The notes beneath the pieces are model-generated. The model saw nothing but the letters and a program-made list of their open reading frames with translations. It was not told the origin of the DNA and searched no databases. From an uncultured Poribacteria bacterium (GTDB taxonomy: Bacteria; Poribacteria; WGA-4E; WGA-3G): a DNA stretch of 64,000 bases. Positions 7,844 through 51,300 of this stretch are shown here, piece by piece. Location of the stretch: positions 5,185-69,184 of the forward strand of contig CATOTL010000002.1 in assembly GCA_951813545.1 (NCBI GenBank). Direction: 5' to 3'. The position numbers and the translations under genes were made by a program. How positions within the stretch are numbered: the stretch's first letter is position 1; every line of letters starts with the position of its first letter.

Positions 7844-7931
7844 GATTTTTGCTCCTACATGTTTTGGATAGTAGCACATCCCTATAAATAGGGAACGGCA
7901 GACAGACGTGCTACCGCCTGCCTGCTATCCG

Positions 7932-27896: not shown

Positions 27897-28913
27897 TTAT
27901 TCGATTTCCAACAATTCGCGCAACTCCTTTTCAAATGCCAAGTTGATGACCCCGTGCAGGATGTTGCCCGGCGGATTAGACCGAAAATAATAGGACAGAT
28001 CGTTTGTAAGGATACCTGCTGCCTTGTATAAATTCGTTACATCCAACCCGAATTTCTGTGTCCAATAGCCTGCGATAATTTCATCGTTGCCCCAATAAGG
28101 TGCGTATGTGCGCATCCACTCTATAAAATCTTTGTGATGCGTGTGGTAATGTTTCGCCGGATACGTCCATAGCGAACATGCGGGTTTTAGGATCGTTGTC
28201 CGTTGCGTCGATACGCCTGACATCTCCAGCAATGCATCGACAGATATTCCGCTTTTCTCTATATCCAACGCGAGTTTATGGAGAAGATGCGCCTCTAAAT
28301 CTTTATTATCGGTAATCGAAATATGGAGATACCCTGCCTGTTTCGGCAAGTTAGGCGTATGCGTGAACATCTTGTTCGGTAGAAGTTCCTCTGGGTTGTT
28401 TAAATCCCGTGTGCTTTCGTTGGGCATGAACAATATATCCGCATCCCAAACCCAAAGCCATTCATACCCCGCAAACCGTTCGTCCCAGTAAGCAACCATC
28501 TGTCTACCAAGATACCCCCAACTCCCGTCTTTGCTTTTTTCAAGCGGCTCCGTGGTGAACCAAATCACATCGTTGTCTATGTCCACAAAGTTTTTTTCAA
28601 AAGTCGGAATGACACGATCTGCGAGGATGTCCTCTACAAAAAATTTGATTTCAACCGCGCGCAATATAGCATCTGTGTACTTCAGACACGACCACCGAGA
28701 ATAAATTGCATACCGAACCCACGCCTCGATGTTCGCAACACGGGTATAGTCATCCCGAAAAAGCGGGATCAGGCACAATATATCTGGATTGACGAAAGGG
28801 GGAACATCAATCGGTGCTTGTAAGTCAGGCAACCGCCATGCCCCCCGATACATCGGATCAATCCAATCAGAGGTTGTCCCATGTGCTGGAAACGGCTTAT
28901 TGTTAATTCGCAT
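27897..28913 (-). CDS. Putative GT-A-type glycosyltransferase (DxD)
   Basis: 338 aa. WLWVWDADILF is DxD-like. Sits in the glycan island. Confidence 0.35.
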   Translation of the reverse strand: MRINNKPFPAHGTTSDWIDPMYRGAWRLPDLQAPIDVPPFVNPDILCLIPLFRDDYTRVANIEAWVRYAIYSRWSCLKYTDAILRAVEIKFFVEDILADRVIPTFEKNFVDIDNDVIWFTTEPLEKSKDGSWGYLGRQMVAYWDERFAGYEWLWVWDADILFMPNESTRDLNNPEELLPNKMFTHTPNLPKQAGYLHISITDNKDLEAHLLHKLALDIEKSGISVDALLEMSGVSTQRTTILKPACSLWTYPAKHYHTHHKDFIEWMRTYAPYWGNDEIIAGYWTQKFGLDVTNLYKAAGILTNDLSYYFRSNPPGNILHGVINLAFEKELRELLEIE

Positions 28914-28916
28914 ACT

Positions 28917-29336
28917 TTAGTTGTTTAGTGCCGCTTGACGGATCGCAACAAGCCCATAATAGGATTTATTCGCCGCAAGATTTGAAGGTACAGTGCCGTC
29001 CACCTGCCCTGCATGTTCCCCCCGAGTGACATTCATCTCAGCTGCACCACTCGGTGTCATGGTCGCTGCAAGCACATTAGTTCCAGAACCGAAAGACCAA
29101 TTCGAGTCTGCTGTGCCAGCCAAGATATTGTTTTGGACTGTCTGTCGCGCAGCAGCAGTCTCATAGATCGCGAAACCAATATCTGTCGCCGCAGGATCAA
29201 ATCCAGGGTTATATTTAATCGGCACAGTAAAACTCTCACTTGCACCCACAGTAGAATCATAACTTTCCACACGTATTGAAGCTGTTTCAGACTCTACTCT
29301 TGCATTAATCAAAAATACATCAACATCATTTGGCAT
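28917..29336 (-). CDS. Hypothetical S/T/A/N-rich beta protein
   Basis: 139-aa ORF. A possible substrate or structural protein. Confidence 0.5.
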   Translation of the reverse strand: MPNDVDVFLINARVESETASIRVESYDSTVGASESFTVPIKYNPGFDPAATDIGFAIYETAAARQTVQNNILAGTADSNWSFGSGTNVLAATMTPSGAAEMNVTRGEHAGQVDGTVPSNLAANKSYYGLVAIRQAALNN

Positions 29337-29352
29337 GATATGCCTCCTTTTT

Positions 29353-29634
29353 TTAGTCGTTTAAGTTTTCTGTTTCGCCCATATTTTTGAGTTCGTTCAG
29401 GCTGGTGTCGTAATAATTAACATCTTCGACACGGACACGGTAATACTCGAGGAGAATGGCTTTATACATTTCTCCTTCATGTTCCACTTCCACGATATAG
29501 TATGTGCGTTCTAACGCGTTTATCGCGTGAAGCGGCACATCCGGGTTAAGAAGCAAACAGGGAAACGGGTCTGTGATCGATTTTTCAAACATCACACTTT
29601 CTTCTATAAAATCTCCGTTAAGATCAAAAGGCAT
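29353..29634 (-). CDS. Hypothetical protein
   Basis: 93-aa ORF. Confidence 0.5.
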   Translation of the reverse strand: MPFDLNGDFIEESVMFEKSITDPFPCLLLNPDVPLHAINALERTYYIVEVEHEGEMYKAILLEYYRVRVEDVNYYDTSLNELKNMGETENLND

Positions 29635-29643
29635 TTTTATTCC

Positions 29644-30216
29644 TCATAGATTGAGTTTGACCAAAGCAATGTTATCCGTTTGTGGGTGGTGCGCGGGGAC
29701 CTGCACAACTAACAGCCGCGGGTCTCCAATCGCCTGAAGTCGGGTATAAAGCCGAGAGATGCGCACGTCCTCACAAACCATGATAGATGGCTCTGCACAA
29801 AGTGCTGAATACAAAGTAAAGAAAACATTTTGTTGTTCGTCATGGTGGTCGCCATCGTCAATAATCAGATGATAAGGACCGTGTTCTTTCGCTGCAGCGA
29901 CCCCCTCGGCTGTATAAGCATCCACTTGGAGAAACGTCCCTTTCTCGCCGAATTCAGATGTTAGGGGCAGAATATCCAACCCTACAAACTTTTCAACAAA
30001 CGGCATCTGTGAAAAAGCGTGTCCACTCCCTTCACCGAAACGGCTTACCCCTATCTCTAAAATCCGTATAGGCACTTCAACGATCGCTAACAATGCAATA
30101 AAGATAAAATCGTAGAGATCGCTATAATCGTGCGCGGATACGGTCTTATCGGAAGCAGATGCTTTTAGATAGTTTGATGGACGGTCTTTTAAGATATTTC
30201 TAATCATCATCACCAT
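29644..30216 (-). CDS. Class I SAM-dependent methyltransferase, CmcI/rhamnosyl-O-methyltransferase-like
   Basis: ILEIGVSRFGEGSG (motif I), VGLDI, LIIDDGDHH. Confidence 0.5.
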   Translation of the reverse strand: MVMMIRNILKDRPSNYLKASASDKTVSAHDYSDLYDFIFIALLAIVEVPIRILEIGVSRFGEGSGHAFSQMPFVEKFVGLDILPLTSEFGEKGTFLQVDAYTAEGVAAAKEHGPYHLIIDDGDHHDEQQNVFFTLYSALCAEPSIMVCEDVRISRLYTRLQAIGDPRLLVVQVPAHHPQTDNIALVKLNL

Positions 30217-30317: not shown

Positions 30318-30740
30318 TTACGAAACATCTCCCACCTCTATTCCAACAACAATCAACCCGTGTTTCCTATTCAGTGCTTCTAAGGATGTAAAGATATTGC
30401 CCATCAATCCGGATGTGCCTTCCAAAATCTCTAAAGCCTTATCAGACACAAGAAACGGATCATCAGAGACCGCATATTCCAGATCCTTGTAGTTTGATAC
30501 TGGAATATGATATAGAGACGGGGTGTATGGAGAACTGTTAAATAACGGAGCAGAACATAATTCCATTTCTTTCATCTGAAAAATGATAACAGGATTCCTA
30601 ATCATATGTGCCAGTTGAAACTTTCTATATATCTCTATCAATTTTGTATCTGTTCCCTCATGTGAAACGATAGCAAACGCAAGCGGTTCTTCTCGAGATT
30701 TATAGACATCTAACGTGAAATGGTCTAAGTTTAGGTTCAT
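30318..30740 (-). CDS. Hypothetical protein
   Basis: 140-aa ORF abutting the GT gene. Confidence 0.5.
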   Translation of the reverse strand: MNLNLDHFTLDVYKSREEPLAFAIVSHEGTDTKLIEIYRKFQLAHMIRNPVIIFQMKEMELCSAPLFNSSPYTPSLYHIPVSNYKDLEYAVSDDPFLVSDKALEILEGTSGLMGNIFTSLEALNRKHGLIVVGIEVGDVS

Positions 30741-31688
30741 CTATAACACCCTCCGTATGATGTCGTTCAGTTGACCCAGCGATGCATCATAAGACCAATT
30801 CTCTTTCGCAAATTCCACATTATCTGCCGATGTTGCATCCGCGTCATCAAAATTATTAAGGATGGCGAGGCACTCTTGTAGTGTCGTGAACCGATGCGCG
30901 TTCGGCCACTCGTCAAAACACAGATGCGGACCCGCGACAATCTCTAAACCGGCAGCGTGTGCCTCCATGCCCATACGGTTACAGGTTTCGTAATGTGAGT
31001 TGACGACAAAAAATCGGGCTTCACCCATAATGGTGGCAACCTTGTTAGCGGGCTGTTGTCCGTGAAATACGTCTACAGACGCTTTAAGCGATCTTTCTAA
31101 CATAAGAGATTTGTAATCCGGGTTCCCCCACCCTGATGCCGATCCTATATAGCCTGTCTCAACCGTTTTTAGATTATTGAAAAGCTCGATAAAAAATTCA
31201 GAGTTCTTAGCGGTGGATATATTGCCACCAGATAACACGGTATCCCCCCGTGTTCTGCTGGGACGGAACAGGTCGCAATCAATAGGTTCGCGCACGATAC
31301 CCAAGACAGGGAGTTGGAAGTCCTGCATATAGTTGAGTTGCCATTTGCAGTTAGCAATCCAGCCATCAACGCATTTCTTTAGTTCTTCAATCGCAAAGCC
31401 GGGCCATCTCAACAATTCGCTATCTGAACCATATACAAAAACAAAAGCATCGTGTGCTTTGAGGTCTTTTGAAAGTTGTTCTATCCGCTCAAAATCGTTG
31501 ATAGCAAGAAGCTCACAGATGATTACATCAACTTCGGCATTTCTAAAAGTGTCCTGCGTTGCGATCTCGATGGTGTGGATACCGCTGTCTTCCCACGCCT
31601 TTGTGACCGCACTTGTTTTTGTGCCCATTCCCCCGGCACTTCTGTTGTTGATGAAGTGGGGGTTTGAGATATAGCAGATTCGGGACAT
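30741..31688 (-). CDS. GT-B (GT4-like) glycosyltransferase
   Basis: N-terminal ICYISNP..SAGGMG and C-terminal FVVNSHYETCNRMGMEAHAAGLEIVAG (E-x7-E-like). GAGGAGG lies 7 nt upstream. Confidence 0.6.
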   Translation of the reverse strand: MSRICYISNPHFINNRSAGGMGTKTSAVTKAWEDSGIHTIEIATQDTFRNAEVDVIICELLAINDFERIEQLSKDLKAHDAFVFVYGSDSELLRWPGFAIEELKKCVDGWIANCKWQLNYMQDFQLPVLGIVREPIDCDLFRPSRTRGDTVLSGGNISTAKNSEFFIELFNNLKTVETGYIGSASGWGNPDYKSLMLERSLKASVDVFHGQQPANKVATIMGEARFFVVNSHYETCNRMGMEAHAAGLEIVAGPHLCFDEWPNAHRFTTLQECLAILNNFDDADATSADNVEFAKENWSYDASLGQLNDIIRRVL

Positions 31689-32308
31689 TTACCTTCCTCC
31701 TCGATCTTCGTTACTATAGCAGAAAATACGTCGTTTATGGGTAGATGGGCTTCAATAACATGGAAGCAAGGAATATGTCTGCCTGCCCACTGACAGAAAT
31801 CGCCCGCTCTTTTGTCTATCAGTTCGGCTTCTTCAGGCTGTATCTCAGAAGTTTTGTCGCGTGCGACGCAGCGCTGCATCGCACGCCTACAACTTAGTTT
31901 TAAGAAAATAGACATGTCAGGGGCCCTGACAAACTCGCAAAGCACTTTGAAATATCTATGCCAGTAGTCTTCTTCAAGATTCCAAATCTCGCTCCAGAAG
32001 GTATCTATAAACACAGGGATATTTTCAAAAGACGCATTTGACTGGATAACTTTCTGACGTATCAGGTTTTCCAAAAACATAACGTTGCTTCGACCGCTAT
32101 TTTTGTAGGTCCCTTCATCGAACAAAGACCTGAGATATGCTCTATATTCCGACATCGTTTTTATAGCATCTCGAAAATCAGACGCTTTCTCCTCCCCATC
32201 CCAAGGGTGCGGATCCACACGGGCTATCTCACCATTATACCTATTAGCGAGCAACGCACACAGTTCAGTTTTACCGCTGCCGCTGATACCGTCTAAAGAA
32301 ATCAGCAT
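31523..32308 (-). CDS. P-loop nucleoside/nucleotide-kinase-like protein
   Basis: ISLDGISGSGKTEL is a Walker A motif. The last ~55 aa overlap the GT gene out of frame. Confidence 0.5.
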   Translation of the reverse strand: MLISLDGISGSGKTELCALLANRYNGEIARVDPHPWDGEEKASDFRDAIKTMSEYRAYLRSLFDEGTYKNSGRSNVMFLENLIRQKVIQSNASFENIPVFIDTFWSEIWNLEEDYWHRYFKVLCEFVRAPDMSIFLKLSCRRAMQRCVARDKTSEIQPEEAELIDKRAGDFCQWAGRHIPCFHVIEAHLPINDVFSAIVTKIEEEGKCPESAISQTPTSSTTEVPGEWAQKQVRSQRRGKTAVSTPSRSQRRTLLEMPKLM

Positions 32309-32309
32309 G

Positions 32310-32993
32310 TTATTCCTCTCTCAAAAGTCGCGATAAATTACCTAAACATCTATTATACCATTTCTCAACGACTTCATGTGTGGTGAGCGCGTCATCAAAA
32401 ATACTTGCATCTAATTTGATTTCTGACGGATATTCCATACCGAGCCATTGATATAAACCCTTACACACCGCGTTAGGGTCGGTCTGAAAATCTTCACTGC
32501 GTATACGATAAGGTGCTATATCGTGCTTTGTGAAATAGTCGTCCCATGCCTGATAGCCTATGATGATCTGGGCGACGCGCCGCTTGATTTTTTTGACAGG
32601 CACTTTATCCGGGGCATCTTGTAGCGAAGATTCTATCGCCTGTCGCCACGGGTCACGTTCAACATAGATATATCGCGTATCCGGTAAGCAGGTATCCGTG
32701 AATTCTTTTATGCCGATACTTAGACATTCATGCATTGCACGGACATGACTCCAGACCATACGCATACCCAATATGCCATTTGATCTTCGCGCTTCTAAGG
32801 CATCTTTGACGCTGTCAATGGTTGCGTTCTCGTTGAGCACATCAAATCGAGCCACTTCAAAAAACTCATTGGGTTCACCGCATCCGAGAGTGCTTAGATG
32901 TGCCGCTAATACGCCTGACCGAGAACGACCTGTAGAAACTATCAAATAATTCAAAAGAGTTTTGTGTACGATGCCATGACGGAGTTGTACCAC
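32310..32993 (-). CDS. Stf0-family sulfotransferase-like protein 2
   Basis: LIVSTGRSRSGVLAAHL (5'-PSB-like loop), MRMVWSH, YIYVERDPWRQAIES. Alternative TTG start at 32954, overlapping the upstream stop as TTGA. Confidence 0.55.
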   Translation of the reverse strand: MVQLRHGIVHKTLLNYLIVSTGRSRSGVLAAHLSTLGCGEPNEFFEVARFDVLNENATIDSVKDALEARRSNGILGMRMVWSHVRAMHECLSIGIKEFTDTCLPDTRYIYVERDPWRQAIESSLQDAPDKVPVKKIKRRVAQIIIGYQAWDDYFTKHDIAPYRIRSEDFQTDPNAVCKGLYQWLGMEYPSEIKLDASIFDDALTTHEVVEKWYNRCLGNLSRLLREE

Positions 32994-33613
32994 TCCTTGT
33001 TAGTGTTTGTGAAAGTCCGCAATATGTTGTCAGTGATGTTTCTGCTTTTAGCACGAATCCCTAAAAACCTACAAATAGTTGCGAGCGTCCCTGTTTTATC
33101 CGCTATAAAATCTTCAAATTCTATGGTGAGTGGCGTGATACCGTATTTATCAAAAAAACGCAACCATGCTATATTCTCGATAGAATTTAGATGTATGCGA
33201 TCCCATATAGCGTCTTCTGGCACTTCCTGTGCTGCTAATTCCGCATCAGCGGCACGATATTTTTCCATTTCTACTGGGTCATGCACATGCTGTGAGTCAA
33301 GCCGTAAATGCTTTTCTCGTGAGAGCGCCTGCATCACTCTGTTTCTGCGCGTTAGATGTATCCATTTCGGGTCAGGCAAAACTTTCGTGAGAAACTTAAA
33401 TGCATCTTCACAATGGTATTGCAAAGCGTCCCAAGATACTTTTGCACCGACTGCATTGCCTACCTTCTCATTATCCAAATAGGCTCGGTATGCTTCTATG
33501 TTATCAAACCTTTTATTGAAGATAGCATCGGGGGAGCCTGCACCAATCTGCTTCAAATAATCGCAGAGTAGCGTACTACCTGTCCTGCCTTCTGTGACTA
33601 TGTAGTAGTTCAT
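32951..33613 (-). CDS. Stf0-family sulfotransferase-like protein 1
   Basis: YYIVTEGRTGSTLLCDYL, GAKVSW, WIHLTRRNRVMQALS. ATGA overlap with the upstream kinase gene. Confidence 0.65.
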   Translation of the reverse strand: MNYYIVTEGRTGSTLLCDYLKQIGAGSPDAIFNKRFDNIEAYRAYLDNEKVGNAVGAKVSWDALQYHCEDAFKFLTKVLPDPKWIHLTRRNRVMQALSREKHLRLDSQHVHDPVEMEKYRAADAELAAQEVPEDAIWDRIHLNSIENIAWLRFFDKYGITPLTIEFEDFIADKTGTLATICRFLGIRAKSRNITDNILRTFTNTNKEWYNSVMASYTKLF

Positions 33614-34203
33614 AAATTATCAATACGCTGAACAGCGGCATCAAAAACATCATCCGCACTTTTGTTGCCGTCTATGGTGATAATAGGATACGGCAATGTT
33701 TGTGATAGGAGCCTGAATGTTTTTCGGTTTTCAGGGGTGGAATCATGTGTTTTATAAGGCAGGGTTCGCGCTTCTACATGTTCCATGTTCTCATTTTCCC
33801 TGCGAAGTAAACGTTCCATTTGGGTATCATACGACACATCTAAAAATATAGAAGCGGTTGGCAACATATCTGCTGCGTAAGTTAGATAATCGGAGAAAGC
33901 CTGTGCTTCTTCTATATCAAAAAAAATACATCTTGTTAGAAATAAATCAACGATGATATTATCTTCCCAAAGTTGCATAGCTGTTTTTGCGACTAAAAGC
34001 CTTTCTATATTTCGTGTGACGCTATCGCCTTTGAAAATATCGCAGAAGATGAACGCGGCATTTTGAAGATTAATCGGCAATTTTGTTATAGGCAGCGGGT
34101 AGAACCCGTATGGCTGATACGACACTAACCTATAATGTTCTGATAGTCGTTCCTTAAGCGTGGATTTACCGGACCCAGAACAGCCCTCAATTGTGATAAT
34201 CAT
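33610..34203 (-). CDS. P-loop nucleoside/nucleotide-kinase-like protein
   Basis: IITIEGCSGSGKSTL is a Walker A motif. About 197 aa, dNK/dNMP-kinase-like length. Confidence 0.5.
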   Translation of the reverse strand: MIITIEGCSGSGKSTLKERLSEHYRLVSYQPYGFYPLPITKLPINLQNAAFIFCDIFKGDSVTRNIERLLVAKTAMQLWEDNIIVDLFLTRCIFFDIEEAQAFSDYLTYAADMLPTASIFLDVSYDTQMERLLRRENENMEHVEARTLPYKTHDSTPENRKTFRLLSQTLPYPIITIDGNKSADDVFDAAVQRIDNL

Positions 34204-34211
34204 AATGAAAA

Positions 34212-35036
34212 CTACCTTTCAAACGGTATTTTTAAGTCTTCCATTAATTTATATGAATAATCTCTTGTCTCAACAGCACGCTCTCTATTTGCGGTTATTA
34301 GCGGGTTGGTATCTATTAGCACAGACAAGCTATTGCCGTTCATCGCCATCATATAACGAACCAATCCTCTCTGCACGATAGTATACATCCAGTCCTCTTT
34401 GTACCAATATAAAGGCGGCATCACCTCAAGGGTGGTAAGACGGGGTGGATTTCTCAAAAACGCTAACACCTTTTCTGCGCCGTATGGCGTAACAAAGAGA
34501 GCACTTACGCTTTGACCTAAAACGCCCTGAAAAAACTCTGAGGGGCCAGGCACTACATTATGTGCGTAAGAACGGGCTTTGCTGTAAGCACCGTGAGGAT
34601 CCACGCCATAATCCAACTGACAAATACCTACACGGTTTGGTGTGTCTCGCGTGGCGTTAACCAAACTATTCAATATATTGTATAAGTCGTGATATGTTTT
34701 AGTGAAACGAACATCGTCTGAAATTAATAATACATTCTTCTGCACATCCACACATCTTAGAAGTCCGCGTATTTGCACTTCTAACAATGATAAATCCCAG
34801 TATTTCATGATGTTTGCGTCATCAAGATTAAGGACTTCTTTCCACGCATCAAAGCCAAGTTCTTCAAAAGAGACCAACAATTCTTCTGTGCTATATTCTC
34901 CGTAGGGTTTCACCCATACAACTTCATAAATATCTTCATGCACAGGGAATTCTAAAGCCTCTAATGCACCTATCTGCGAAGCACGCCTATACCATTGATC
35001 CTCGCATGATGTCGCTAACACCTTTTCAAATGCCAT
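34212..35036 (-). CDS. GT25-like glycosyltransferase candidate
   Basis: NVLLISDDVRF and SALFVTPYGAEKVL resemble GT25 (LPS glycosyltransferase) motifs by eye. Confidence 0.35.
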   Translation of the reverse strand: MAFEKVLATSCEDQWYRRASQIGALEALEFPVHEDIYEVVWVKPYGEYSTEELLVSFEELGFDAWKEVLNLDDANIMKYWDLSLLEVQIRGLLRCVDVQKNVLLISDDVRFTKTYHDLYNILNSLVNATRDTPNRVGICQLDYGVDPHGAYSKARSYAHNVVPGPSEFFQGVLGQSVSALFVTPYGAEKVLAFLRNPPRLTTLEVMPPLYWYKEDWMYTIVQRGLVRYMMAMNGNSLSVLIDTNPLITANRERAVETRDYSYKLMEDLKIPFER

Positions 35037-35043
35037 AAATTTC

Positions 35044-36111
35044 CTATATGAAGTTGAGATGCTGCGTAGGCTCTATAAGTTGTTTTATTAGGTCATTGTT
35101 AGGCTTCAAATGACAACGAACGCATTCTTTACTTATATCAAAAGCCTCATAGAACGAATCTAACGCACCTGAACGCCAAGCATCTGCGAGTCGCACTTCG
35201 TTAAGGTCAGCAATCACCGCTTTCGGACGGTATTTCATTATGCAGCATGGATAGAGTTTGCCATCAGCACCTATCGTTGGCGCGATATTTGAATAGTAGC
35301 AAATATCGCCAGAGGTGTATTTCGGAAAATCTTCAAGGGATCTATCTGAAAAATGGTTGACGATCTGGACATCCGAAGTCGTTTCTGCTATATCTTTGAT
35401 AATAGCATCGGCTTCAATATGTTGTTCAGGGGTGAGTTCTATATCAGGGATATAGTCGCCCTCAAAAACGACACCGCCATACCGGACATAATCCGCACCT
35501 AACTTCGCACCTAACTTCGCAATCTCTCGGAGTTCGTGCTGGTTGCCTTGCTGGACAATAAAGGATATGCCAATAGTGGCTTTAGCATCGGATAATGCTT
35601 TTATTGCTTTGCACGCTTTCTCAAAATCATTCTCCCGAGAGACATGCACCTTGCAATGCGTTTCGGGCGTTGCTGAATCTAAAGAAACTCTCATCCATGT
35701 TGCTTCGCGCATTAAATTTGCAATGTCGTCAAAGTGTTTATCTCTCCATGCACCATTTGTTACCATCCCGTAATCAAACCCACGCGCTTTGATGGATTCT
35801 AACACAACCGGGATTTCAGGATGGAGTGTCGGCTCGCCACCACCTGTAAGTTCTATGGCTTTAACGCCTAAATCTGCTGAGTCATCAAGTATTTCTATGA
35901 TGGTTTCAAGCGATAGCCAATCTTTGAGTTCAAAGTTCGCATTGATGTTGTCGTCTTTCGTGTACCGATACATACAGAACGGGCAGTCGTGATTACAGAA
36001 CGCTACAGGATCAAACTGGACTTTTCGCGGAAATACCCTCTCGCCTTTTTTGAATTGCTCTATTTCTTTATAGTATTTTGTTATTTTTACCAACGAACTT
36101 TGCATAATCAC
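35044..36111 (-). CDS. Radical SAM enzyme with a C-terminal SPASM/twitch-like Cys cluster
   Basis: CNHDCPFCMY (CxxxCxxC), ELTGGGEPT, and C-terminal CYYS..CC..CVRC. Confidence 0.75.
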   Translation of the reverse strand: MIMQSSLVKITKYYKEIEQFKKGERVFPRKVQFDPVAFCNHDCPFCMYRYTKDDNINANFELKDWLSLETIIEILDDSADLGVKAIELTGGGEPTLHPEIPVVLESIKARGFDYGMVTNGAWRDKHFDDIANLMREATWMRVSLDSATPETHCKVHVSRENDFEKACKAIKALSDAKATIGISFIVQQGNQHELREIAKLGAKLGADYVRYGGVVFEGDYIPDIELTPEQHIEADAIIKDIAETTSDVQIVNHFSDRSLEDFPKYTSGDICYYSNIAPTIGADGKLYPCCIMKYRPKAVIADLNEVRLADAWRSGALDSFYEAFDISKECVRCHLKPNNDLIKQLIEPTQHLNFI

Positions 36112-36239: not shown

Positions 36240-36953
36240 TCATACGTCCTCTTTATTTATCTGAATTCTGTCCTGATCGTCCTTATAGCGTTCGTGGCCA
36301 AACCAACGAGTGTCCACAACATTAGTGCCTTCCGCATCTTTTGATCTGCTATAGATACCGGGAACCCCCCACATACCAGCTATCAAATCTTCAAAGGCAT
36401 CTGGCTCTTTAAGGAACTCAGTAATAATATAATCTGCACCCGATTTTGACATAAGCAGCCCACTATCGCCCCTTCCCAGAGCACCCTTCATAATTTTCAA
36501 ATCGGGGCATACCCATATTTCTTCATGATCAACATCGTTAAATCGAGACCACCTCAACTGTAAAAATAAAAAGTCTTCGTTAAAATCATGGGTTAAAGTC
36601 ATGCAAATTTCATAGAGTTCATGCGCTTTTAAGAGTAATACATTATCGTCTTGATTGTAATACCCATAAGAATATTCTTGGCAATCTCTGATAGACTCAA
36701 GAATCCTTAAAGTTCCCCACAAATATCCTATATCACCCCGTGGCTGCTTACGCAGGTAATCACAATCAAAGATCGGGTATCCGTCTTTTATCGCAGCATC
36801 ACCCATCGTAGCTGATGTTTCATAATCCAGACCGTGAGGGGCTTTATGGATAATGACATCTTCAATACTAATACCGAGCGTTTGATAGTTGCCAAACAAC
36901 ATATATTTCCGATCTGTGCGATGTTCAAGATTTAAGTTGTTGAAAGAGATCAT
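36240..36953 (-). CDS. GT25-like glycosyltransferase candidate
   Basis: N-terminal ISFNNLNLEHRTDR, GDIGYLWG, and GLLMSKSGADYI. Confidence 0.35.
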   Translation of the reverse strand: MISFNNLNLEHRTDRKYMLFGNYQTLGISIEDVIIHKAPHGLDYETSATMGDAAIKDGYPIFDCDYLRKQPRGDIGYLWGTLRILESIRDCQEYSYGYYNQDDNVLLLKAHELYEICMTLTHDFNEDFLFLQLRWSRFNDVDHEEIWVCPDLKIMKGALGRGDSGLLMSKSGADYIITEFLKEPDAFEDLIAGMWGVPGIYSRSKDAEGTNVVDTRWFGHERYKDDQDRIQINKEDV

Positions 36954-37848: not shown

Positions 37849-38568
37849 TCAAAATTTGAAAACGATAGCACCCATCGGCGTAAATGAAATTTCCGCTCCA
37901 TCATTATGGATATAGGTTCGAGTGTCTACGACTAACGATAAACCAAGTCCTTCTGTAACATCAATACCCATTTGAGAACGACCTATCAAAACTACAGGAA
38001 CAACCTCTCGCTCAGTTATGGGAACGTATGCAGTTACGGAATTCTCAACCTTCCACCTCTCAAAAGCGGTCCGAACTACACCGTTGACGTTATCTACATC
38101 AGGAAGGGTGTATGTGTTAGAAGGGTCATCGGTAAAGTATTTGATTGGGTTGCCGTCAGCATCAAAGCCATCAAGCCCCCCGTCTGTGACAGGATCACTA
38201 CCGCGAAATGAAGCCCCCGCGGAAATGTCCAACGCCCCGATGCTGAAGTTGACAACTCCACCTACATCAACGACACCCCCTAATTCGTCTTTGTTGTAAG
38301 ATCCGAAAGGTTGGAAACCTACCGTATCGTTAAAGTTATACTGTAAGGACACATTGCCTATCAGCGAAGTCGTGTCGGATTTCTGTGCCTGTGCATCAAC
38401 AGCGAATTCAATATCCTCTACAGATTTTTCATAATCACCCAACACGCCGATAGTATTTTCGGTGAAATTCACACCCACCTGATTCGCAAAGACATTGGAT
38501 ACAAAAAGTATCATCAGTACAAACAACACAAAGACAAAAATCGGAATTCCAAAACGTACGTATTTCAA
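37849..38568 (-). CDS. Outer-membrane beta-barrel protein (signal peptide, C-terminal Phe)
   Basis: TTG start with AAGGAG 6 nt upstream. The N-terminus ...VSNVFA looks like a signal peptide. Alternating beta pattern, ending VFKF. Confidence 0.6.
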   Translation of the reverse strand: MKYVRFGIPIFVFVLFVLMILFVSNVFANQVGVNFTENTIGVLGDYEKSVEDIEFAVDAQAQKSDTTSLIGNVSLQYNFNDTVGFQPFGSYNKDELGGVVDVGGVVNFSIGALDISAGASFRGSDPVTDGGLDGFDADGNPIKYFTDDPSNTYTLPDVDNVNGVVRTAFERWKVENSVTAYVPITEREVVPVVLIGRSQMGIDVTEGLGLSLVVDTRTYIHNDGAEISFTPMGAIVFKF

Positions 38569-45374: not shown

Positions 45375-48300
45375 TTATTTACGCAGATCTCTGCGTTCTA
45401 AAGTACGGCGTTTCGGTGTCCGCCTGTTCCTACGCGTTGTTGTAGGTGCGGGTGGCATTGTTGATTCTCCAAAGGATTCAAGGAATTGGTACGCACTTGG
45501 ACCATAACCGGGCGGGCGTATCAATCGTAACGGTGTACGCAGACCTCGCTTCAAATTTTGCTGACGGACACCTTGTACAACATCTGTCGTCAAATCTGCC
45601 ATTGTCCCGAATGCGGGACCTAAAAACGCTTCCTCTGCACCTTGCGCCCAATGCGTCAACTGGTAAAGTATCTCGCCAAAGGTTGTTGCACCGCCTGCCT
45701 GCACGACACCAGCAAAGAAACTTAAATCTTCTTCATCGGGTTCTTGAAATCGGCTAATCCGTCCCAGCAGATTTGTTGCTGTTCCCCACATCCCCGTCGC
45801 TAATAGAATATGCGGAATCAAAACGAACCCGGTTTTGCCGACAGCCAATGCCTTCGTTACAGCTTTGTTTTGAATGCCCATGTCCTCATTCATCCAAGTA
45901 TGCATCACCTTCCACTCCATCTTCAGTCTATCCTTCAACATCTTCGTCTGTGCGAATGAAAACGAACGGAACAACGCTGCAGTCATCAGTACCGGATTAT
46001 CGCGCATCCACTTAAACCTATCCAAGGATTCAACGCGGTGCTGCGTAAAATCCGCCATTTCTTTTGCGTACTCCGCTAAGAAATCATAGACAGGATATAA
46101 GTGTGGCATTTGCTCGCGCACCTCTTTCTCTGTAAGATTCCGAATCGTGTTCATATCCTTCACTGATAAATTCGGGACAGATAGCGCTGCGTTTAACTTC
46201 GGTTTAAGCGTGTGGGCATGCGGAATCGAAAGCAACCGTTCACGTGCTGCGTTTGAACGTTCAGGGTTACGTATCATTTTCTTTATCTTCGCGATCGCAT
46301 GATGTTTGCCTGCACGTGCTGAAATACCCCTATTTAATCTTTCTACTTGGAAAAACGGTGACCATGGCACTGTTTTTATACTCGGATCTTCCCAGTGTTT
46401 TGCAAACGGTGAAAGTGATTTCGGTCCGAATTTCCCGACTTGGTAGCGCGGGGTTGCACCTAACTGCTGATGTAGGGCGCGACTCAAGAAACTGCCAACA
46501 CCCCCGAATTCATGCATCACATCTATTGCAAATGCCCCGACATCCTGTGCTTCGCCGCGTGCTTTATCACTTGTGATAAAGTCAAAGAACCCGCGTATCA
46601 TATTCCGCCAACCTGTTGTCAGCCCAACGTTCACTGTCTGCGACAAGTTCGGAATGAACGCTCTGCCGAGATATGTTAATCCAAAGAAGTTACGCACATT
46701 CCTCGCGACGTTTTTACCGACTTCATCGAATCTATCGCCTTTCCGCCAACCTAACTGCCCGATAATGATGTCCTCCGCAATATGAATGCGTTCTATACCT
46801 TTCGCAAATACCCCTTTAAGCAATATCGGGTTTTCAAGGAAAGGAATACCTTTCGGTGTAAATTGCATGTTCCCATTATCCAACACCTCGATAAACTCAG
46901 CCTCTATCAACGCTTGCCAATCTGCGGGCGACATCGGTGTGATGTTCAACGCACCTACAGGTCTGTTGAAGGTATCCGGCGTAAATTCGAGACGCGTACC
47001 GCTTTCGTTTCTAAACGGTAACCCCGCTTGCGGTTTCCCGCCTTTCTCGAAATCGGAATATCCCGCGGCATACCGCAATTTCGCAACTGCCAATTCTGTC
47101 GGTGACATTGTTGACAATGTTTCATCGTCCGAAAGGAACTCTAACAACTTCGCTTCCAACAAATCGTTACGCTGTCCAAACTCTTTTATCGCCTGCAACC
47201 GATGTCCAGCACGGATGATGTAATAGTCCAACACATTGAAAAAATCCTTACGATAATTTGGAAACACATATTGCCGGGTCTGTTCCAAATTCCCATACTT
47301 CTTTGTTTTCGCTTCTTCTATCCGCGTCGATAAAATATCCAACGCCTCTACAAGCGGTATCTGGTTCGCGTCCGCAACCTCTTGTGCATACGCCTCAAAC
47401 CCCGCACGATTGCGTTCAGGGTCGAGTGCGTTCCAATCAACAATATGTGGGAAATAGTTTTCAACTGGAGTCCACACTTTATGCGGGACTTTGCCTTTGA
47501 ATAGGAAAATCGGATCTCGCGCTTCTCCTGCTTTATAGACAAGCAACTTCTGTGTAAAGTCCGCATACGCATCATGCACACCGCTATAGGTTTTGAAACT
47601 GCCAAACGGTGTCGGTTGGACGGCTTCTTCGGCAGGCACAATCCGCTTGATAATATACAACGGATGCCCGTCCTTCACAATCTCCCACTGTTGGATATTC
47701 GCTATTTTGGAATAAATGATATTCGCACCATCAGGATATTCTAACCCGTTATCAGCAAACGCATCGCGAAGTGGATCCGGCATACCGTCTCGCACCGCAT
47801 CGTCCCATATCGTTCGCGCAGCGTTCCTATCCCCTGTCCATCGTTGGCGACCAGGGTCTCGGTATGCCAGTAATGTGTAATCCGGGTGGTTGCCTAACAA
47901 CGGATTGATAGCCTTCGTTTCGCCTAACAAATCTTGAGAGGCTTCCGTTGCTTCAATCTTAACCTTGTTTCCAAAGGGGTCCTCAAGCATATAGGTTTCC
48001 GAACCCTCTATAATTTCGCTCTGTTGGGTATCTCTATTGTAAAACGTTTTTGATTGCACAAAAACGGCATACACATTGCCAGATGCCTTATCTTGCACGA
48101 AACCTTGCACAACACCCTTTTCACGCGCCTGTTGTCCCATGCTACGCATAAATTTGTCGAACAAAGGACGATCCTGTTCAACTTCGTTTCGGTGTTCTTG
48201 CTTCAAGTACCCTTTATCTACAAAGTCTTCGTTTATATCAAACAACAAGCCCTGACGGAATATATTGTTATTTTCTGATAGGATACGAACTTCAAAGTTT

Positions 48301-51300
48301 TCTTTGAGATACCCGCTCGTCGCTTTTACTATTTTATCAACAATATCCGGGACTTCCGTGTTGCTATCACCTTGCATGTGACGCACCAACATCTCATTCA
48401 ATTCTTCATAAACCTCTTTGAAAGTTCTATTATCTGCTTTTGCCCGTTCTCTCACAAAGTCTTTCCATTCCGGGTGCAGTCTATCTAAAAGATGCGTACC
48501 ACTCCCAGAGGTATTATCTCCAAAATTCCGTATCCGTTTCAGACTTGTCACCAAGTCTTGACCCGTTTTCCCCATCATGTCCAATACCTGTTTCCCCGTC
48601 TGCGGTAAAACCGCATACGCTCCCGCTGTTGTTAGCAAACTGCGTAATCGAGAAGGTATCTGTGTCGGTGTGTTCTCTGGCACATCGTCGGCATCGCGCT
48701 CAACAGATCGCGTCACTGGGATACCTAACTCGGTATCTTGCCTAACGCTACCTGTCTGATAGCCACCGATTCCTGAAACAGACAACAGAGTTCCATCTTC
48801 AACAGATGTCTGTCCGCTCGCAATACGCGTTCGCGCGCCGCGCGCCCCTGCCGAAACTTGTCCTTCCTGTAAAGGCATTTGCCCGGCGGTTGGTTCAGCT
48901 GCCATTTCGGGATCCACATCTGCTCCGCTTCCAACGCTGCCTGCACCGAGTCCACCGAGTTCGGATCCACTTCCTCCCATTGGTGTTGTTGTGGGTGTAG
49001 CGGACATACCAGAAAGTGCATCAGTTTGTGTTGGAACGTCTGATACTTCGCTTCCGCGTTCAGCGTCAGATACTCCATCGCCAACACCAGGTCGAGATGG
49101 TATTGCGGGGCGTGCAACGCCTTGACTCTCTCCCGGACCGCCTCTATCAGTAGGGGGTAAAGATAGAGACTGCCCTCCGGCAAGTCGTAGTCCTGCGGGC
49201 AGATCTGGGTTGCTAATTGGTTGAGTAAATGTCTGTTCGCTTGGACCAACTCCTGTGAACTCCGCGCCAATAGCTTCTTCCGTAAGTGGATATCTTTCAT
49301 GTCGTAACTCCTCTATTTTCGCAAATAATTCGTCAGTGTCTTTTGCAGTGTCTAACATCAGTGAGGATAACTTCCCGCGTTTATCTATCACATAAGCAGT
49401 CCTATTACCGCCAATATCCAAACGTCTCATATAGTAGCGGTCGCTAATTGTATTCCAATACGTGTCCATGCGTTGACGACCCATCGTTATGAATTCTATC
49501 GAAGTGATTGGCATAAGAAAGACAACCCGACCCTTCGGTGCAAGTATCTTCATCGCCTCGTCTAACTTTTGCGCTATATCTTCAACGACATTCAGCAATA
49601 TCACTGTCGGACGTGGCCCCACCCATTCACGAGCGATATTATCCGGGTCTATGTTGTGAACGGCATCAGCAACACCGGGTAGCACTTGATGAAACAAATC
49701 TCGCACATAGCCGTCTGTGTTCGTCGTCTCAACGGTTGCCGCGCCTGCAGCACGCGCGAAAGTTGCGAGTTCACCGTTGTCATCATTTATCGTAAGTACA
49801 CGGTCCTTGTCGGTAATCGCAGCTAAACGCGTACCTAGATAAGATTCCGCATGCGTTAGTGTAGTTCTCACGGTTCTGAATTCATCATAAGTCGATACTG
49901 CGTCTGTTGGGGACTTTACATTCGGGTCGAAGTTTTTAGACAATATCCACTGGTTGGTAACGAAGTGTATGAACTTATTTATTAAAGCGTCATGTCTGCT
50001 TCCCATCGCGACTGATTCGTTGAAATGAATCCTGTAGAGATCATAAGGATTTATGTTATCACCATTTTCAAGGTCTGTGATAACATCTTCGATAAAAGCA
50101 TCGCGTTCTTTTGATGGCGTTGTTAAACCGTGTTCAACGCCATAATCGGAGTCAATCGTCGTCTCATGTAAACGTCCTGAAATACCGAGTGCAGCTTCAA
50201 ATTCATAGGTCGGTATCATCTGTTGGTATGCATCTTTGTAGCGATTATCTTCTTTTAAACCGTCAAACCATGCAAATTGGATACCAGCATCTGTACCTCC
50301 CCTACCTGGATGTTTGTGTTGGGTATTCAGCACCTGATTCCAACTTGATTTCGCAATATCCGCTTTCGTTTTATACCAATCACCTTCACCGACAAATACA
50401 TCAACATACAGACCGCCCCGAGATCGCGCTTCACCTTCAATGAAACTCCATAACTGTGCAGGTTCAAGAAGATGCAAATCCTTGTATTCTTGGACATCCA
50501 AAATTTCACCATGACGTCCCTTGAAAAATATCGTTGTCCAATTTAACTCTGTTTGCAGATATTTTGCTAATTTTGCGATACCTTTTAGATAGGATTCTTC
50601 TCTTTTAACATTCGTTCTTGGCAGCCCCGCGGATTCATTATACAATTTCAAAAGTTTTCCTGTCTCAGAATTGACATCATATTGGTAAAGTGGATCCCCC
50701 GGACGGATACTCGTATTACGTCTAAAAAAGCCTTTTTGTTGGGTTTTCTCCCACCCTAATTCCGCTTCACTTAACCCTATATTGTCGCGGTTACGGATTT
50801 TCCAATTACCCCTCTCATCTTGGTACGGTTTGGCTTCCGCATATTCGAGCGAGTTGACAACAATCTGTCCGAGATACTGTTCGCCATACTGCGTTAGGTC
50901 CGCTTTCGCACTCAATTTATCGCCATCTGAGAACATCGCGGGACCACCGGGATGGTTGTGCATCTGAATGAAATACTTTGCATTTAACCGGCGCATGTGG
51001 TAGTTGACGCGGGGGTAGTTGGGGGGGACAGCTTGACCGGGTACACCGAAAGATACCACCTCGTGTCCAACGATATTGTAATTCTCGTCTAAATAGAAAT
51101 CGACAAACCTTTCGAGTCCGGGATGTCTGAACAACTGTCCCATCACGGCTAACTCTTTGTGTGACGTGATTTTGTAGCCGCGTAAGTCGATATGCAACCC
51201 TTTACGGAGGTTCGTAAACACACCGCGTACACGTCTTTCTATTGCTGGCGTTGTCGCAAATTGACGACGATTGATTGCGTTCTGTACCGAGTCGATTTCG

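What the first reader, a model, noticed from the sequence alone, without database searches (positions are those of the whole stretch)
31523..34203. Translationally coupled kinase-sulfotransferase-sulfotransferase-kinase core
The four genes are arranged symmetrically as kinase, ST, ST, kinase. Their junctions are coupled: ATGA at 33610-33613, TTGA at 32951-32954, and a stop placed 1 nt before the ATG at 32308. This implies stoichiometric co-expression.

The kinases do not show the APS-kinase LDGDNxR motif, so they are probably not simply making PAPS. They may phosphorylate the acceptor (a sugar or a DNA base). If so, phosphate and sulfate decorations would be installed by paired enzymes.
Basis: partly seen in the sequence, partly recalled or inferred. 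Interest (0 to 1): 0.7.

Follow-up and report, generated by a model that had tools for sequence, protein, structure and literature searches.

The report
Phage sugar-tailoring operon with sulfotransferases
An uncultured phage carries two sulfate-adding enzymes flanked by two unusual nucleotide-kinase-like proteins, but comparison with related phages shows that these belong to separate modules of a larger sugar-building operon rather than forming one four-part machine.

Summary
Four tightly packed minus-strand genes encode a P-loop kinase (K1), two Stf0-family sulfotransferases (ST1, ST2) and a second kinase (K2). The ATGA, TTGA and stop-1nt-ATG junctions are exactly where stated.

The kinases are indeed not APS kinases. 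They are distant paralogs in a small clade seen only on phage-like contigs, with a dNK/dTMP-kinase fold (27 cluster representatives among 1.84 billion proteins).

Synteny in about ten related metagenomic phage lineages breaks the kinase-ST-ST-kinase symmetry into three modules:
- radical SAM, GT25-like glycosyltransferase and K1, seen in two lineages only;
- ST1-ST2, always adjacent and present in seven of the ten lineages;
- K2, a GT-B glycosyltransferase and a ~140-aa protein. This trio is complete wherever enough sequence was read, including three lineages with no sulfotransferase.

Tight junctions are the rule across the whole 14-gene operon, so they do not mark out these four genes.

Best reading: this is a phage glycan-assembly and tailoring operon with four putative glycosyltransferases, a methyltransferase-like gene, a radical SAM enzyme and two sulfotransferases. 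The kinases probably act on nucleotide or nucleotide-sugar substrates. The sulfotransferases probably sulfate the glycan using host PAPS. The acceptor (virion, host envelope or DNA) is unresolved.

The parts
33610..34203 (-). K1: P-loop kinase, 197 aa. A distant paralog of K2 and an accessory gene, found only where the radical SAM gene is present.
   Evidence: Walker A GCSGSGKST. Pfam AAA_18 3e-8, Thymidylate_kin 6e-6, dNK 9e-6. PHROG 761 'thymidylate kinase' 3e-11. hhalign against the K2 family gives probability 98.5%, E 2e-15 over 187 columns. PADLOC VakA 1.4e-6. Only one homolog cluster was found among 5.8 billion proteins.
32951..33613 (-). ST1: Stf0-family sulfotransferase, 220 aa.
   Evidence: PF09037 E 1e-19, 71 bits against a cutoff of 22. 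The family profile hits Stf0 structure 1tex at 4e-12. The 5'-PSB motif (GRTGST) and 3'-PB motif (TRRNRVMQALS) are conserved.
32310..32954 (-). ST2: Stf0-family sulfotransferase paralog, 214 aa from a TTG start.
   Evidence: PF09037 E 2e-9. 26% identical to ST1, E 2e-17. The TTGA overlap recurs in L005. It keeps the G-x-P-x-E-F-F segment that aligns with Stf0.
31523..32308 (-). K2: P-loop kinase of a small clade seen only on phage-like contigs, with a dNK/TMK-like fold. 261 aa, including a C-terminal tail that overlaps the GT gene by 166 nt.
   Evidence: AF2 pLDDT 90. Foldseek top hits are M. mycoides deoxyadenosine kinase and dTMP kinases, TM 0.6-0.7. The family has 27 representatives among 1.84e9 proteins. 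Near-invariant residues are K13, T14, R84, D102, W109 and R146.
30741..31688 (-). GT-B glycosyltransferase (Glycos_transf_1-like), 315 aa. The constant downstream partner of K2.
   Evidence: PF00534 5e-6. Orthologs lie after K2 in L002, L004, L005, L006, L008, L010, L012, L017 and L018. Strong SD GAGGAGG.
30318..30740 (-). u140: conserved ~140-aa protein of unknown function that follows the GT.
   Evidence: Positional and weak sequence conservation in L004, L005, L008, L010, L012 and L018. No family hit.
34212..35036 (-). u274: GT25-like putative glycosyltransferase.
   Evidence: The family profile hits the catalytic domain of procollagen galactosyltransferase 1 at E 2e-4, including the EDD motif. 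Orthologs and paralogs occur in L001-3 and L005.
35044..36111 (-). Radical SAM / SPASM enzyme, 355 aa.
   Evidence: PF04055 1e-21 and SPASM 3e-7. Nearest solved structures are PqqE, MoaA, SkfB and cytosylglucuronate decarboxylase. Ortholog in L001/L002.
36240..36953 (-). u237: second GT25-like paralog.
   Evidence: Aligns with the u274 family, with an invariant DD and the GA motif.
29644..30216 (-). Methyltransferase-like protein, 190 aa (weak call).
   Evidence: PHROG 21658 methyltransferase, E 0.004. The ILEIGV..G.G and DDGDH motifs read in the sequence are my own inference.
27897..28913 (-). u338: putative GT-A-like transferase with a DxD motif. Its family is expanded to as many as 5 paralogs in related phages.
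   Evidence: Invariant D144, D157 and D159 (DADxxF) in a 10-sequence alignment. Paralogs in L004, L008, L010, L012 and L018. No Pfam or PDB hit.
28917..29634 (-). u139 and u93: small operon genes of unknown function.
   Evidence: ORFs. No family hits.

Best explanation
The four genes are a real, co-transcribed stretch of a larger late-region operon (about 37204-27897, minus strand). The operon sits in an uncultured phage with a P22-like portal.

The operon most likely builds and tailors an oligosaccharide. It encodes four putative glycosyltransferases (two GT25-like, one GT-B, one DxD protein), a radical SAM/SPASM enzyme, a methyltransferase-like protein and two Stf0-type sulfotransferases.

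Comparative synteny splits the kinase-ST-ST-kinase block into three independent modules:
1. Radical SAM, GT25-like protein and K1.
2. The ST1-ST2 pair, an optional sulfation cassette. I infer that the two paralogs either take different positions on the glycan or work as a heterodimer.
3. K2, GT-B and u140, the invariant core.

K1 and K2 are divergent paralogs of a nucleoside/nucleotide-kinase-fold clade. I infer that they phosphorylate a nucleotide-like substrate (an NMP, NDP or nucleotide sugar) that feeds the adjacent GT-B (K2) and the radical SAM enzyme (K1). I do not think they partner the sulfotransferases or make PAPS.

I also infer that the sulfotransferases use host PAPS to O-sulfate sugar hydroxyls of the product.

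Shown: gene identities, folds, paralogy and module boundaries. Inferred: kinase substrate, sulfation target and final acceptor. I rank the acceptor as virion or cell-envelope glycan first and DNA base second.
For: Gene families:
- ST1 and ST2 are Stf0-family, with the PAPS-binding motifs conserved.
- The u274/u237 profile matches the GT25 catalytic domain.
- GT315 matches Glycos_transf_1.
- u338 has an invariant DxD.
- The L001/L002 relatives add an NAD-dependent sugar epimerase/dehydratase and a PhyH dioxygenase to the cluster.

Kinases:
- The K2 model has pLDDT 90, and its top matches are dNK and TMK structures.
- Of 25 K2-family members, 22 hit Pfam Thymidylate_kin, 19 hit dNK and one hits APS_kinase, at E 0.009.
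- K1 is a paralog of K2.

Module structure:
- K2-GT-u140 is present without any ST in L010/11, L012/13 and L018.
- ST1-ST2 are adjacent in all seven ST-bearing lineages.
- K1 occurs only with the radical SAM gene.

Position:
- The cluster sits among structural genes. In L004 it lies between the portal and major-capsid homologs.

Against: - No biochemical data exist, and the acceptor is unknown.
- No sugar-1-phosphate nucleotidylyltransferase, flippase or polymerase was detected, so the source of the donor sugars and the carrier is unexplained.
- The kinase substrate cannot be read from sequence. The dNK catalytic Glu and the TMK DR[YFH] Arg are not conserved.
- The K1 structure model was poor, pLDDT 47.
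- 16 kb of the 80-kb contig lies outside the window and could not be retrieved.
- The related loci are short metagenomic fragments, so absence of STs is established only within the DNA read around K2 (2-10 kb on each side, depending on the locus).
Confidence: 0.55

Rival explanations
1. The operon is a DNA hypermodification pathway. K2 (and K1) would be dNMP kinases for a non-canonical deoxynucleotide. The GT-B and the other glycosyltransferases would glycosylate the modified base after replication. The sulfotransferases and the methyltransferase-like protein would then tailor the DNA-linked glycan.
For: - K2 has a deoxynucleoside/dTMP-kinase fold.
- In phages RB69, DLP3 and RL38J1, which glycosylate 5-hydroxycytosine in DNA, a TMK-like 'nucleotide kinase' gene lies next to the first GT-B glycosyltransferase (PMC13326640).
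- Phage glycosyltransferase clusters that hypermodify DNA have been reported in neighbourhoods with structural genes and with epimerases and secondary glycosyltransferases (bioRxiv 10.1101/2023.12.21.572611).
- Radical SAM enzymes act on DNA-linked groups in thymidine hypermodification (PMC8989533).
Against: - No thymidylate-synthase homolog, TET/5mYOX dioxygenase or aGPT-Pplase was found among the scanned window ORFs of at least 120 aa, and none is flagged in the DNA read around K2 in the related loci. No cytosine methyltransferase was found in the window, and L005 shows only a faint DNA_methylase hit about 6 kb upstream of K2.
- In the RB69-type clusters the ThyA homolog is adjacent to the kinase and GT.
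- RB69 ORF045c matches the K2 profile only at the P-loop.
- The putative M6 5-hmdU DNA kinase ORF matches only the P-loop and LID, at 14 bits.
- No DNA polymerase was detected in the window.
Confidence: 0.2
2. Each kinase is functionally paired with a sulfotransferase, so that phosphate and sulfate are installed on the same acceptor by a stoichiometric K-ST-ST-K complex.
For: - Adjacency and overlapping or abutting stop/start codons.
- The kinases lack APS-kinase motifs.
- K1 is found only in loci that also carry sulfotransferases.
Against: - Most ST-bearing lineages have only one kinase (L004, L005, L006, L008, L016).
- K2 persists without any ST in three lineages and tracks the GT-B gene instead.
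- In L004 a DxD-protein gene separates the STs from the kinase.
- Tight junctions occur along the whole operon.
Confidence: 0.1
3. One or both kinases are non-canonical APS kinases that boost or supply PAPS for the sulfotransferases, in a host that makes little of it.
For: - Sulfotransferases need PAPS, and no CysC or CysDN homolog is visible in the window.
- APS kinases share the P-loop kinase fold.
- K1 occurs only where sulfotransferases occur.
- One of 25 K2-family members gives a marginal APS_kinase hit, E 0.009.
Against: - There is no LDGDNxR motif and no PF01583 hit for K1 or K2.
- No APS kinase appears among the top 50 structural matches.
- K2 is retained in ST-less phages.
- K1 is absent from five of seven ST-bearing lineages.
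Confidence: 0.07
4. The operon makes a diffusible sulfated glycosylated nucleoside-type small molecule rather than decorating a macromolecule. In this reading the radical SAM enzyme and K1 act as a viperin-plus-kinase-like pair on a nucleotide.
For: - The radical SAM enzyme hits prokaryotic viperin models (PADLOC pVip 6e-18), and K1 hits the viperin-associated kinase VakA at 1.4e-6.
- The radical SAM enzyme also resembles MoaA and cytosylglucuronate decarboxylase, both of which act on nucleotides or nucleosides.
Against: - The viperin NCBIfam score is 59 bits against a cutoff of 180, and this enzyme carries a SPASM domain. The match is probably to the generic radical SAM core.
- Four glycosyltransferases, and up to five DxD paralogs in relatives, fit polymer or oligosaccharide assembly better.
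- The radical SAM enzyme and K1 are absent from most lineages.
Confidence: 0.05

Closest known systems
Stf0 (Mycobacterium trehalose 2-sulfotransferase; Pfam PF09037, PDB 1tex)
   Same: ST1 and ST2 score above the Pfam gathering threshold. Their N-terminal 5'-phosphosulfate-binding loop and 3'-phosphate-binding motif align with Stf0.
   Different: They are about 40-60 residues shorter than Stf0. They fall far below the NCBIfam equivalog cutoff for the trehalose enzyme (39 and 22 bits against 400). They are phage-encoded, always occur as an adjacent paralog pair, and their acceptor is unknown. The ST1 clade lacks the acidic residue of the P-x-E-F-F segment that ST2 and Stf0 share.
Deoxynucleoside kinases and dTMP kinases (Pfam PF01712 and PF02223; PDB 2jaq/2jas, 2ccg, 2pbr)
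   Same: P-loop, overall fold and an Arg-bearing LID helix. Best sequence-profile and structure matches: 2jaq at 7e-5 and TM 0.6-0.7.
   Different: Only 14-19% identity. The Arg of the DR[YFH]/ERS motif is missing (K2 has D-T-F-W, K1 has D-L-F). No conserved Glu sits at the dNK catalytic-base position. Scores are far below the equivalog cutoffs. The family is tiny (27 representatives). All ten lineages examined are phage-like contigs, and in nine of them a GT-B gene follows K2.
TMK-like 'nucleotide kinase' plus GT-B pairs in the 5-hydroxycytosine glycosylation clusters of RB69, DLP3 and RL38J1 (PMC13326640)
   Same: A TMK-fold kinase gene directly adjacent to a GT-B glycosyltransferase inside a multi-glycosyltransferase phage cluster.
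   Different: Those clusters have an adjacent thymidylate-synthase homolog, and none is found here. The gene order differs (ThyA-GT-K there, K-GT-u140 here). RB69 ORF045c shares only the P-loop with K2. None of those clusters has a sulfotransferase.
5-hmdU DNA kinases of thymidine hypermodification (M6 gp54, ViI gp67; PMC8989533)
   Same: Phage P-loop kinases that sit in modification clusters, which can include radical SAM enzymes.
   Different: Similarity of K2 to the P-loop-kinase ORF in the M6 region is limited to the P-loop and LID, at 14 bits. No aGPT-Pplase, PLP enzyme or dUMP hydroxymethylase is present.
Phage virion glycosylation cassettes (mycobacteriophage glycosyltransferase genes near the capsid genes; recalled from my own knowledge)
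   Same: Cytoplasmic glycosyltransferase and tailoring genes embedded among structural genes of a tailed phage.
   Different: Those cassettes have no sulfotransferase, kinase or radical SAM enzyme that I know of. No glycosylated virion protein has been identified here.

Membership tests
Stf0-type sulfotransferase (PF09037) | Score above the Pfam gathering threshold | tested here: met
   ST1 scores 71.4 bits and ST2 37.6 bits, against a cutoff of 22. The family profile hits 1tex at 4e-12.
Stf0-type sulfotransferase (PF09037) | PAPS-binding motifs: a 5'-PSB loop (R-x-G-S/T near the N-terminus) and a 3'-PB motif (R...S) | tested here: met
   R10, S13 and R89 are invariant across 9 phage ST sequences. 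The segment aligns with Stf0 YLVLASQRSGSTLL.
Stf0-type sulfotransferase (PF09037) | Trehalose 2-sulfotransferase equivalog (NF047724) | tested here: not met
   38.7 and 22.5 bits against a cutoff of 400. The match is at family level only, and the acceptor is unknown.
Stf0-type sulfotransferase (PF09037) | PAPS-dependent sulfate transfer | not testable with these tools
   Needs an enzyme assay.
APS kinase (CysC, PF01583) | Pfam or profile match | tested here: not met
   No PF01583 hit for K1 or K2 at E<=0.1. Only one of 25 K2-family members hits it, at E 0.009.
APS kinase (CysC, PF01583) | LDGDNxR motif after strand 2 | tested here: not met
   Absent from both sequences. No conserved Asp follows strand 2 in the K2 family.
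APS kinase (CysC, PF01583) | Closest structural neighbours are APS kinases | tested here: not met
   The top 50 Foldseek PDB matches are dNK, TMK and adenylate-kinase structures.
dTMP kinase (PF02223 / TIGR00041) | Equivalog-level score | tested here: not met
   K1 29.4 and K2 33.7 bits, against a cutoff of 83.25. The Pfam hit is partial: for K2 it covers only the C-terminal half, at 33.8 bits.
dTMP kinase (PF02223 / TIGR00041) | D-R-[YFH] motif at the end of strand 3 | tested here: not met
   K2 and its family have F-I-D-T-F-W, and K1 has I-V-D-L-F. The Asp is kept and the Arg is absent. The motif definition is from my own knowledge.
Deoxynucleoside kinase (PF01712) | Pfam gathering score and fold | tested here: inconclusive
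   K1 26.0 and K2 22.7 bits, just under the cutoff of 27, although 19 of 25 family members hit at E<=0.01. The best structural match is M. mycoides dAK, E 2e-8, TM 0.62.
5-hmdU DNA kinase (5-HMUDK) | Sequence similarity to M6 gp54-type kinases | tested here: not met
   The K2 HMM matches the P-loop-kinase ORF of the M6 region at 14 bits, covering only the P-loop and LID. The identity of that ORF as gp54 is inferred, because the record is unannotated.
5-hmdU DNA kinase (5-HMUDK) | Co-occurrence with aGPT-Pplase and dUMP hydroxymethylase | tested here: not met
   No such Pfam or PHROG families in the window ORFs or the related loci.
RB69-type DNA glycosylation cluster | Thymidylate-synthase homolog adjacent to the kinase and GT | tested here: not met
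   None in the 64-kb window or in the related loci. 16 kb of the contig was not seen.
RB69-type DNA glycosylation cluster | TMK-like kinase adjacent to a GT-B | tested here: met
   K2-GT315 adjacency is conserved. This is an analogy only, because the proteins are not detectably orthologous.
Prokaryotic viperin plus viperin-associated kinase | Radical SAM enzyme scores as viperin | tested here: not met
   NF038283 scores 59.4 bits against a cutoff of 180. A SPASM domain is present. The PADLOC pVip hit of 6e-18 covers only the radical SAM core.
GT25 glycosyltransferase | Profile match to the catalytic domain, including the EDD motif | tested here: inconclusive
   The u274/u237 profile hits COLGALT1 at E 2e-4 over 129 positions, with EDD aligned. 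There is no Pfam PF01755 hit for the single sequences.

The most novel reading that the evidence does not exclude
This phage lineage attaches a sulfated, and possibly methylated, oligosaccharide to its own particle or to its own DNA. I know of no report of a sulfated virion or DNA modification in a bacteriophage. The pathway would depend on a previously unrecognised clade of nucleotide-kinase-fold enzymes that works obligately with a GT-B glycosyltransferase.
Probability: 0.3. Interest if true: 0.85.

Novelty: new variant of a known kind. Interest (0 to 1): 0.55.

Why it matters
Sulfotransferase genes have been noted in marine phage genomes, but their role is explicitly described as unclear (PMC10580990). 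Five phrase searches for a phage- or virus-encoded sulfotransferase returned no paper.

This operon places a conserved sulfotransferase pair in a defined biosynthetic context: four putative glycosyltransferases plus tailoring enzymes, next to structural genes. That turns the question "what do phage sulfotransferases do?" into an experiment, namely expressing the cassette and looking for sulfated glycans on virions, DNA or the cell envelope.

The work also defines a small clade of nucleotide-kinase-fold proteins, found so far only on phage-like contigs, that nearly always sits next to a GT-B glycosyltransferase. The same unexplained pairing occurs in the RB69, DLP3 and RL38J1 DNA-glycosylation clusters. 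A shared role for such kinases in phage glycosylation pathways may therefore be general.

A sulfated, polyanionic coat on a particle or genome would bear on host recognition, mucus adherence and evasion of nucleases.

Tried and rejected
- GenBank phages: megablast of the 12-kb region found nothing. tblastn of K1, K2, ST1 and the portal also found nothing. The lineage has no cultured relative.
- Collection scans: pattern scans of IMG/VR with ST1 and K2, of GTDB genomes and of JGI metagenomes gave no relatives. The full K2 alignment was too diverse to scan with.
- Rest of the contig: attempts to recover the missing 16 kb failed.
- Word-index search with K2 returned nothing. The exhaustive search was needed.
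- K1 structure: the prediction from a 2-sequence alignment was unusable (pLDDT 47.6) and was not sent to fold search.
- Single-sequence PDB searches of ST1 and ST2 gave only chance hits. The 9-sequence profile was needed.
- The u338 profile had no PDB match. Proteins downstream of the module in relatives had no PHROG match.
- Promoter and terminator scans gave counts equal to shuffled sequence, so they say nothing about the transcription unit.
- Collagen-like acceptor idea: this was prompted by the GT25 and PhyH genes. No G-X-Y repeats were found in any ORF.
- Viperin reading of the radical SAM enzyme: rejected as a membership claim because of the score and the SPASM domain.
- Tandem duplication of a K-ST unit as the origin of the symmetry: rejected, because the order K1-ST1-ST2-K2 on one strand is not a tandem repeat and the modules vary independently.

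Full report
**What is there**

The window is phage DNA. It has a P22-like portal (14419-16365) and a major head protein (6770-7879), a tail-lysozyme-like protein and homing endonucleases, and a 4113-aa ORF. The source contig is 80,316 bp. Neither the 12-kb region nor the portal, K1, K2 or ST1 has any match in 50,697 GenBank phage records.

The finding's four genes all lie on the minus strand:
- K1, 34203-33610
- ST1, 33613-32951
- ST2, 32954-32310
- K2, 32308-31523

The TTG start of ST2 is credible because it restores an N-terminus parallel to ST1's. The L005 ortholog has the identical TTGA arrangement.

**Identity of the proteins**

ST1 and ST2 are Stf0-family sulfotransferases.
- They hit Pfam PF09037 at 1e-19 and 2e-9.
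- A 9-sequence profile hits the Stf0 structure 1tex at 4e-12.
- Both PAPS-binding motifs are conserved.
- They are 26% identical paralogs.
- They are not equivalogs of the trehalose enzyme.

K1 and K2 carry classical Walker A motifs and give only weak dTMP-kinase, dNK and AAA hits. Neither gives an APS-kinase hit.

An exhaustive HMMER scan of 1.84 billion cluster representatives found only 27 K2 relatives. A 25-sequence alignment of these gave a confident AlphaFold model, pLDDT 90. Its best matches are Mycoplasma deoxyadenosine kinase and bacterial dTMP kinases in the PDB, at TM 0.6-0.7. In the viral structure library the best matches are deoxynucleoside and dTMP kinases.

The near-invariant residues of the family are the P-loop Lys and Thr, R84, D102, W109 and R146. 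This pattern resembles an NMP kinase. It lacks the Arg of the DR[YFH] motif, and no acidic residue is conserved where dNKs place their catalytic base.

K1 looks unrelated to K2 by BLASTP beyond the P-loop. Profile-profile comparison shows that it is a distant paralog (probability 98.5%, E 2e-15, 187 columns). The K1 model was too poor to use.

**Context in the window**

The four genes sit inside a 14-gene minus-strand operon, about 37204-27897. In transcription order it contains:
- u83
- a GT25-like protein, u237
- a radical SAM/SPASM enzyme
- a second GT25-like protein, u274. The family profile hits the procollagen galactosyltransferase catalytic domain at E 2e-4 with the EDD motif aligned.
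- K1, ST1, ST2 and K2
- a GT-B glycosyltransferase (PF00534)
- a 140-aa protein
- a methyltransferase-like protein
- two small proteins
- a 338-aa protein with an invariant DxD motif

Ten of the 13 junctions overlap or have gaps of 16 nt or less. Translational coupling therefore does not single out the four-gene block.

**Comparative synteny**

This is the decisive evidence. I read the DNA around relatives of K1, ST1 and K2 in about ten metagenomic lineages. I then re-scanned all loci with HMMs and tblastn.

| Lineage | Gene order |
|---|---|
| L001-3 | epimerase, rSAM, PhyH, GT25-like, K1, ST1, ST2, K2, GT |
| L005 | two GT25-like, a broken ST, ST, ST1, ST2, K2, GT, u140 (no K1, no rSAM) |
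| L006/7 | ST, ST, K2, GT |
| L016 | ST, ST, K2 |
| L008/9 | ST, ST, K2, short DxD protein, GT, u140 |
| L004 | ST1, ST2, DxD protein, divergent kinase, GT, u140 |
| L010/11, L012/13, L018 | 2-5 DxD paralogs, K2, GT, u140, and no sulfotransferase in the DNA read |
| L017 | K2, GT |

Three conclusions follow.
- K2 tracks the GT-B gene, not the sulfotransferases.
- ST1-ST2 is an optional cassette, but the two genes are always adjacent.
- K1 appears only where the radical SAM gene appears.

The kinase-ST-ST-kinase symmetry in the window is therefore three modules lying next to one another.

**How it most likely works**

The gene content fits assembly and tailoring of an oligosaccharide. It includes four putative glycosyltransferases, plus a sugar epimerase/dehydratase and a dioxygenase in relatives, along with methyl, sulfate and radical chemistry.

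I infer that the sulfotransferases O-sulfate the glycan using host PAPS. No PAPS-synthesis gene is visible.

I infer that the kinases act on nucleotide-like substrates that serve the neighbouring GT-B (K2) and the radical SAM enzyme (K1). The weak K1 match to viperin-associated kinases, together with the radical SAM enzyme's resemblance to NTP- and nucleoside-utilising enzymes, is a lead in that direction. It is not a membership claim.

The acceptor is unresolved. The cluster lies among structural genes, and in L004 it lies between the portal and capsid homologs. This favours virion or envelope glycans.

**The DNA alternative**

This rival is serious for three reasons. TMK-like kinase plus GT-B pairs are a feature of the RB69, DLP3 and RL38J1 clusters that glycosylate 5-hydroxycytosine (PMC13326640). 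Phage glycosyltransferase clusters that hypermodify DNA are widespread (bioRxiv 10.1101/2023.12.21.572611). K2 also has a deoxynucleotide-kinase fold.

Against it, no thymidylate-synthase homolog, TET-like dioxygenase or aGPT-Pplase is detectable in the window or in the related loci. K2 shares only the P-loop with RB69 ORF045c. It shares only the P-loop and LID with the M6 kinase-like ORF.

I give the glycan-tailoring explanation with nucleotide-directed kinases 0.55.

**Novelty and verdict**

Phage glycosyltransferase cassettes are known, and phage sulfotransferase genes have been noted, with their function called unclear (PMC10580990).

Three things are new here:
- a conserved sulfotransferase pair embedded in a multi-glycosyltransferase phage operon;
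- a small kinase clade, seen only on phage-like contigs, tied to a GT-B;
- a lineage without cultured relatives.

This is a new variant of a known kind. Interest is 0.55.

Noticed in passing
window 31523-31688 (minus strand); L006 about 2090-2260: The K2 ORF runs 166 nt into the GT-B gene in another frame. The same overlap, with the stop at the same GT codons (V-I, GTAATC), occurs in L006, whose K2 is about 34% identical. In L002 and L017, K2 ends just before the GT start. The similar tail ends (PKLM and PKWM) may simply reflect the conserved GT sequence in the other frame.
   Followed up: partly
K2-family proteins P0007, P0010, P0014, P0019, P0020; P0011, P0015, P0016, P0021, P0022 (alignment A6): Many K2-family members carry a low-complexity linker followed by one of two short conserved C-terminal motifs, (S/R)-x-DPWGH or SLRQRSLQR-like. 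These look like docking peptides for an unknown partner.
   Followed up: no
window 45375-57716 (minus strand): A 4113-aa ORF whose only family hit is a RadC-like JAB domain at residues 2191-2270 (E 1e-4). It may be a giant virion or ejected protein.
   Followed up: partly
L012 4318-10017; L010 7987-10011; L018 4994-8014: The DxD protein family (window u338, 27897-28913) is expanded to 2-5 tandem paralogs directly upstream of K2 in the sulfotransferase-less lineages. This suggests longer or more varied glycans in those phages.
   Followed up: partly
L005 8545-9283: A fourth sulfotransferase-like gene upstream of three intact ones is split into two ORFs and is probably a pseudogene. Sulfotransferase copy number therefore varies from 0 to 4 between lineages.
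   Followed up: partly
L001/L002 (L002 434-1189 and 2240-3052): The closest relatives carry an NAD-dependent sugar epimerase/dehydratase and a PhyH-family dioxygenase (E 3e-34). These sit around the radical SAM gene and the GT25-like gene, and neither is present in the window's operon.
   Followed up: partly
window 35044-36111 and 33610-34203: The radical SAM enzyme hits prokaryotic viperin models in PADLOC (6e-18), and K1 hits the viperin-associated kinase VakA (1.4e-6). The two genes co-occur in both lineages that have either. The radical SAM enzyme has a SPASM domain and scores far below the viperin cutoff.
   Followed up: partly
window 37849-38568 (minus strand): A 239-aa protein with an N-terminal hydrophobic signal-like segment lies just upstream of the operon. 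It is 47% identical to a protein in L005 and has no family hit.
   Followed up: no
window, whole: No tRNA genes were found. Several homing-endonuclease-like ORFs (GIY-YIG, NUMOD3) and an HU-like DNA-binding protein are present. No recognisable replication genes were found in the 64 kb.
   Followed up: partly
ST alignment A5, columns after the G-x-G-x-P segment: The ST2 clade keeps the P-x-E/D-F/Y-F segment that aligns with Stf0's GEPQEFF, whereas the ST1 clade has P-x-A/S-x there. From memory, this acidic residue has been proposed as the catalytic base in Stf0, and Stf0 binds trehalose at a dimer interface. If so, ST1 and ST2 might work as an asymmetric heterodimer. I could not check this against the literature held here.
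   Followed up: no
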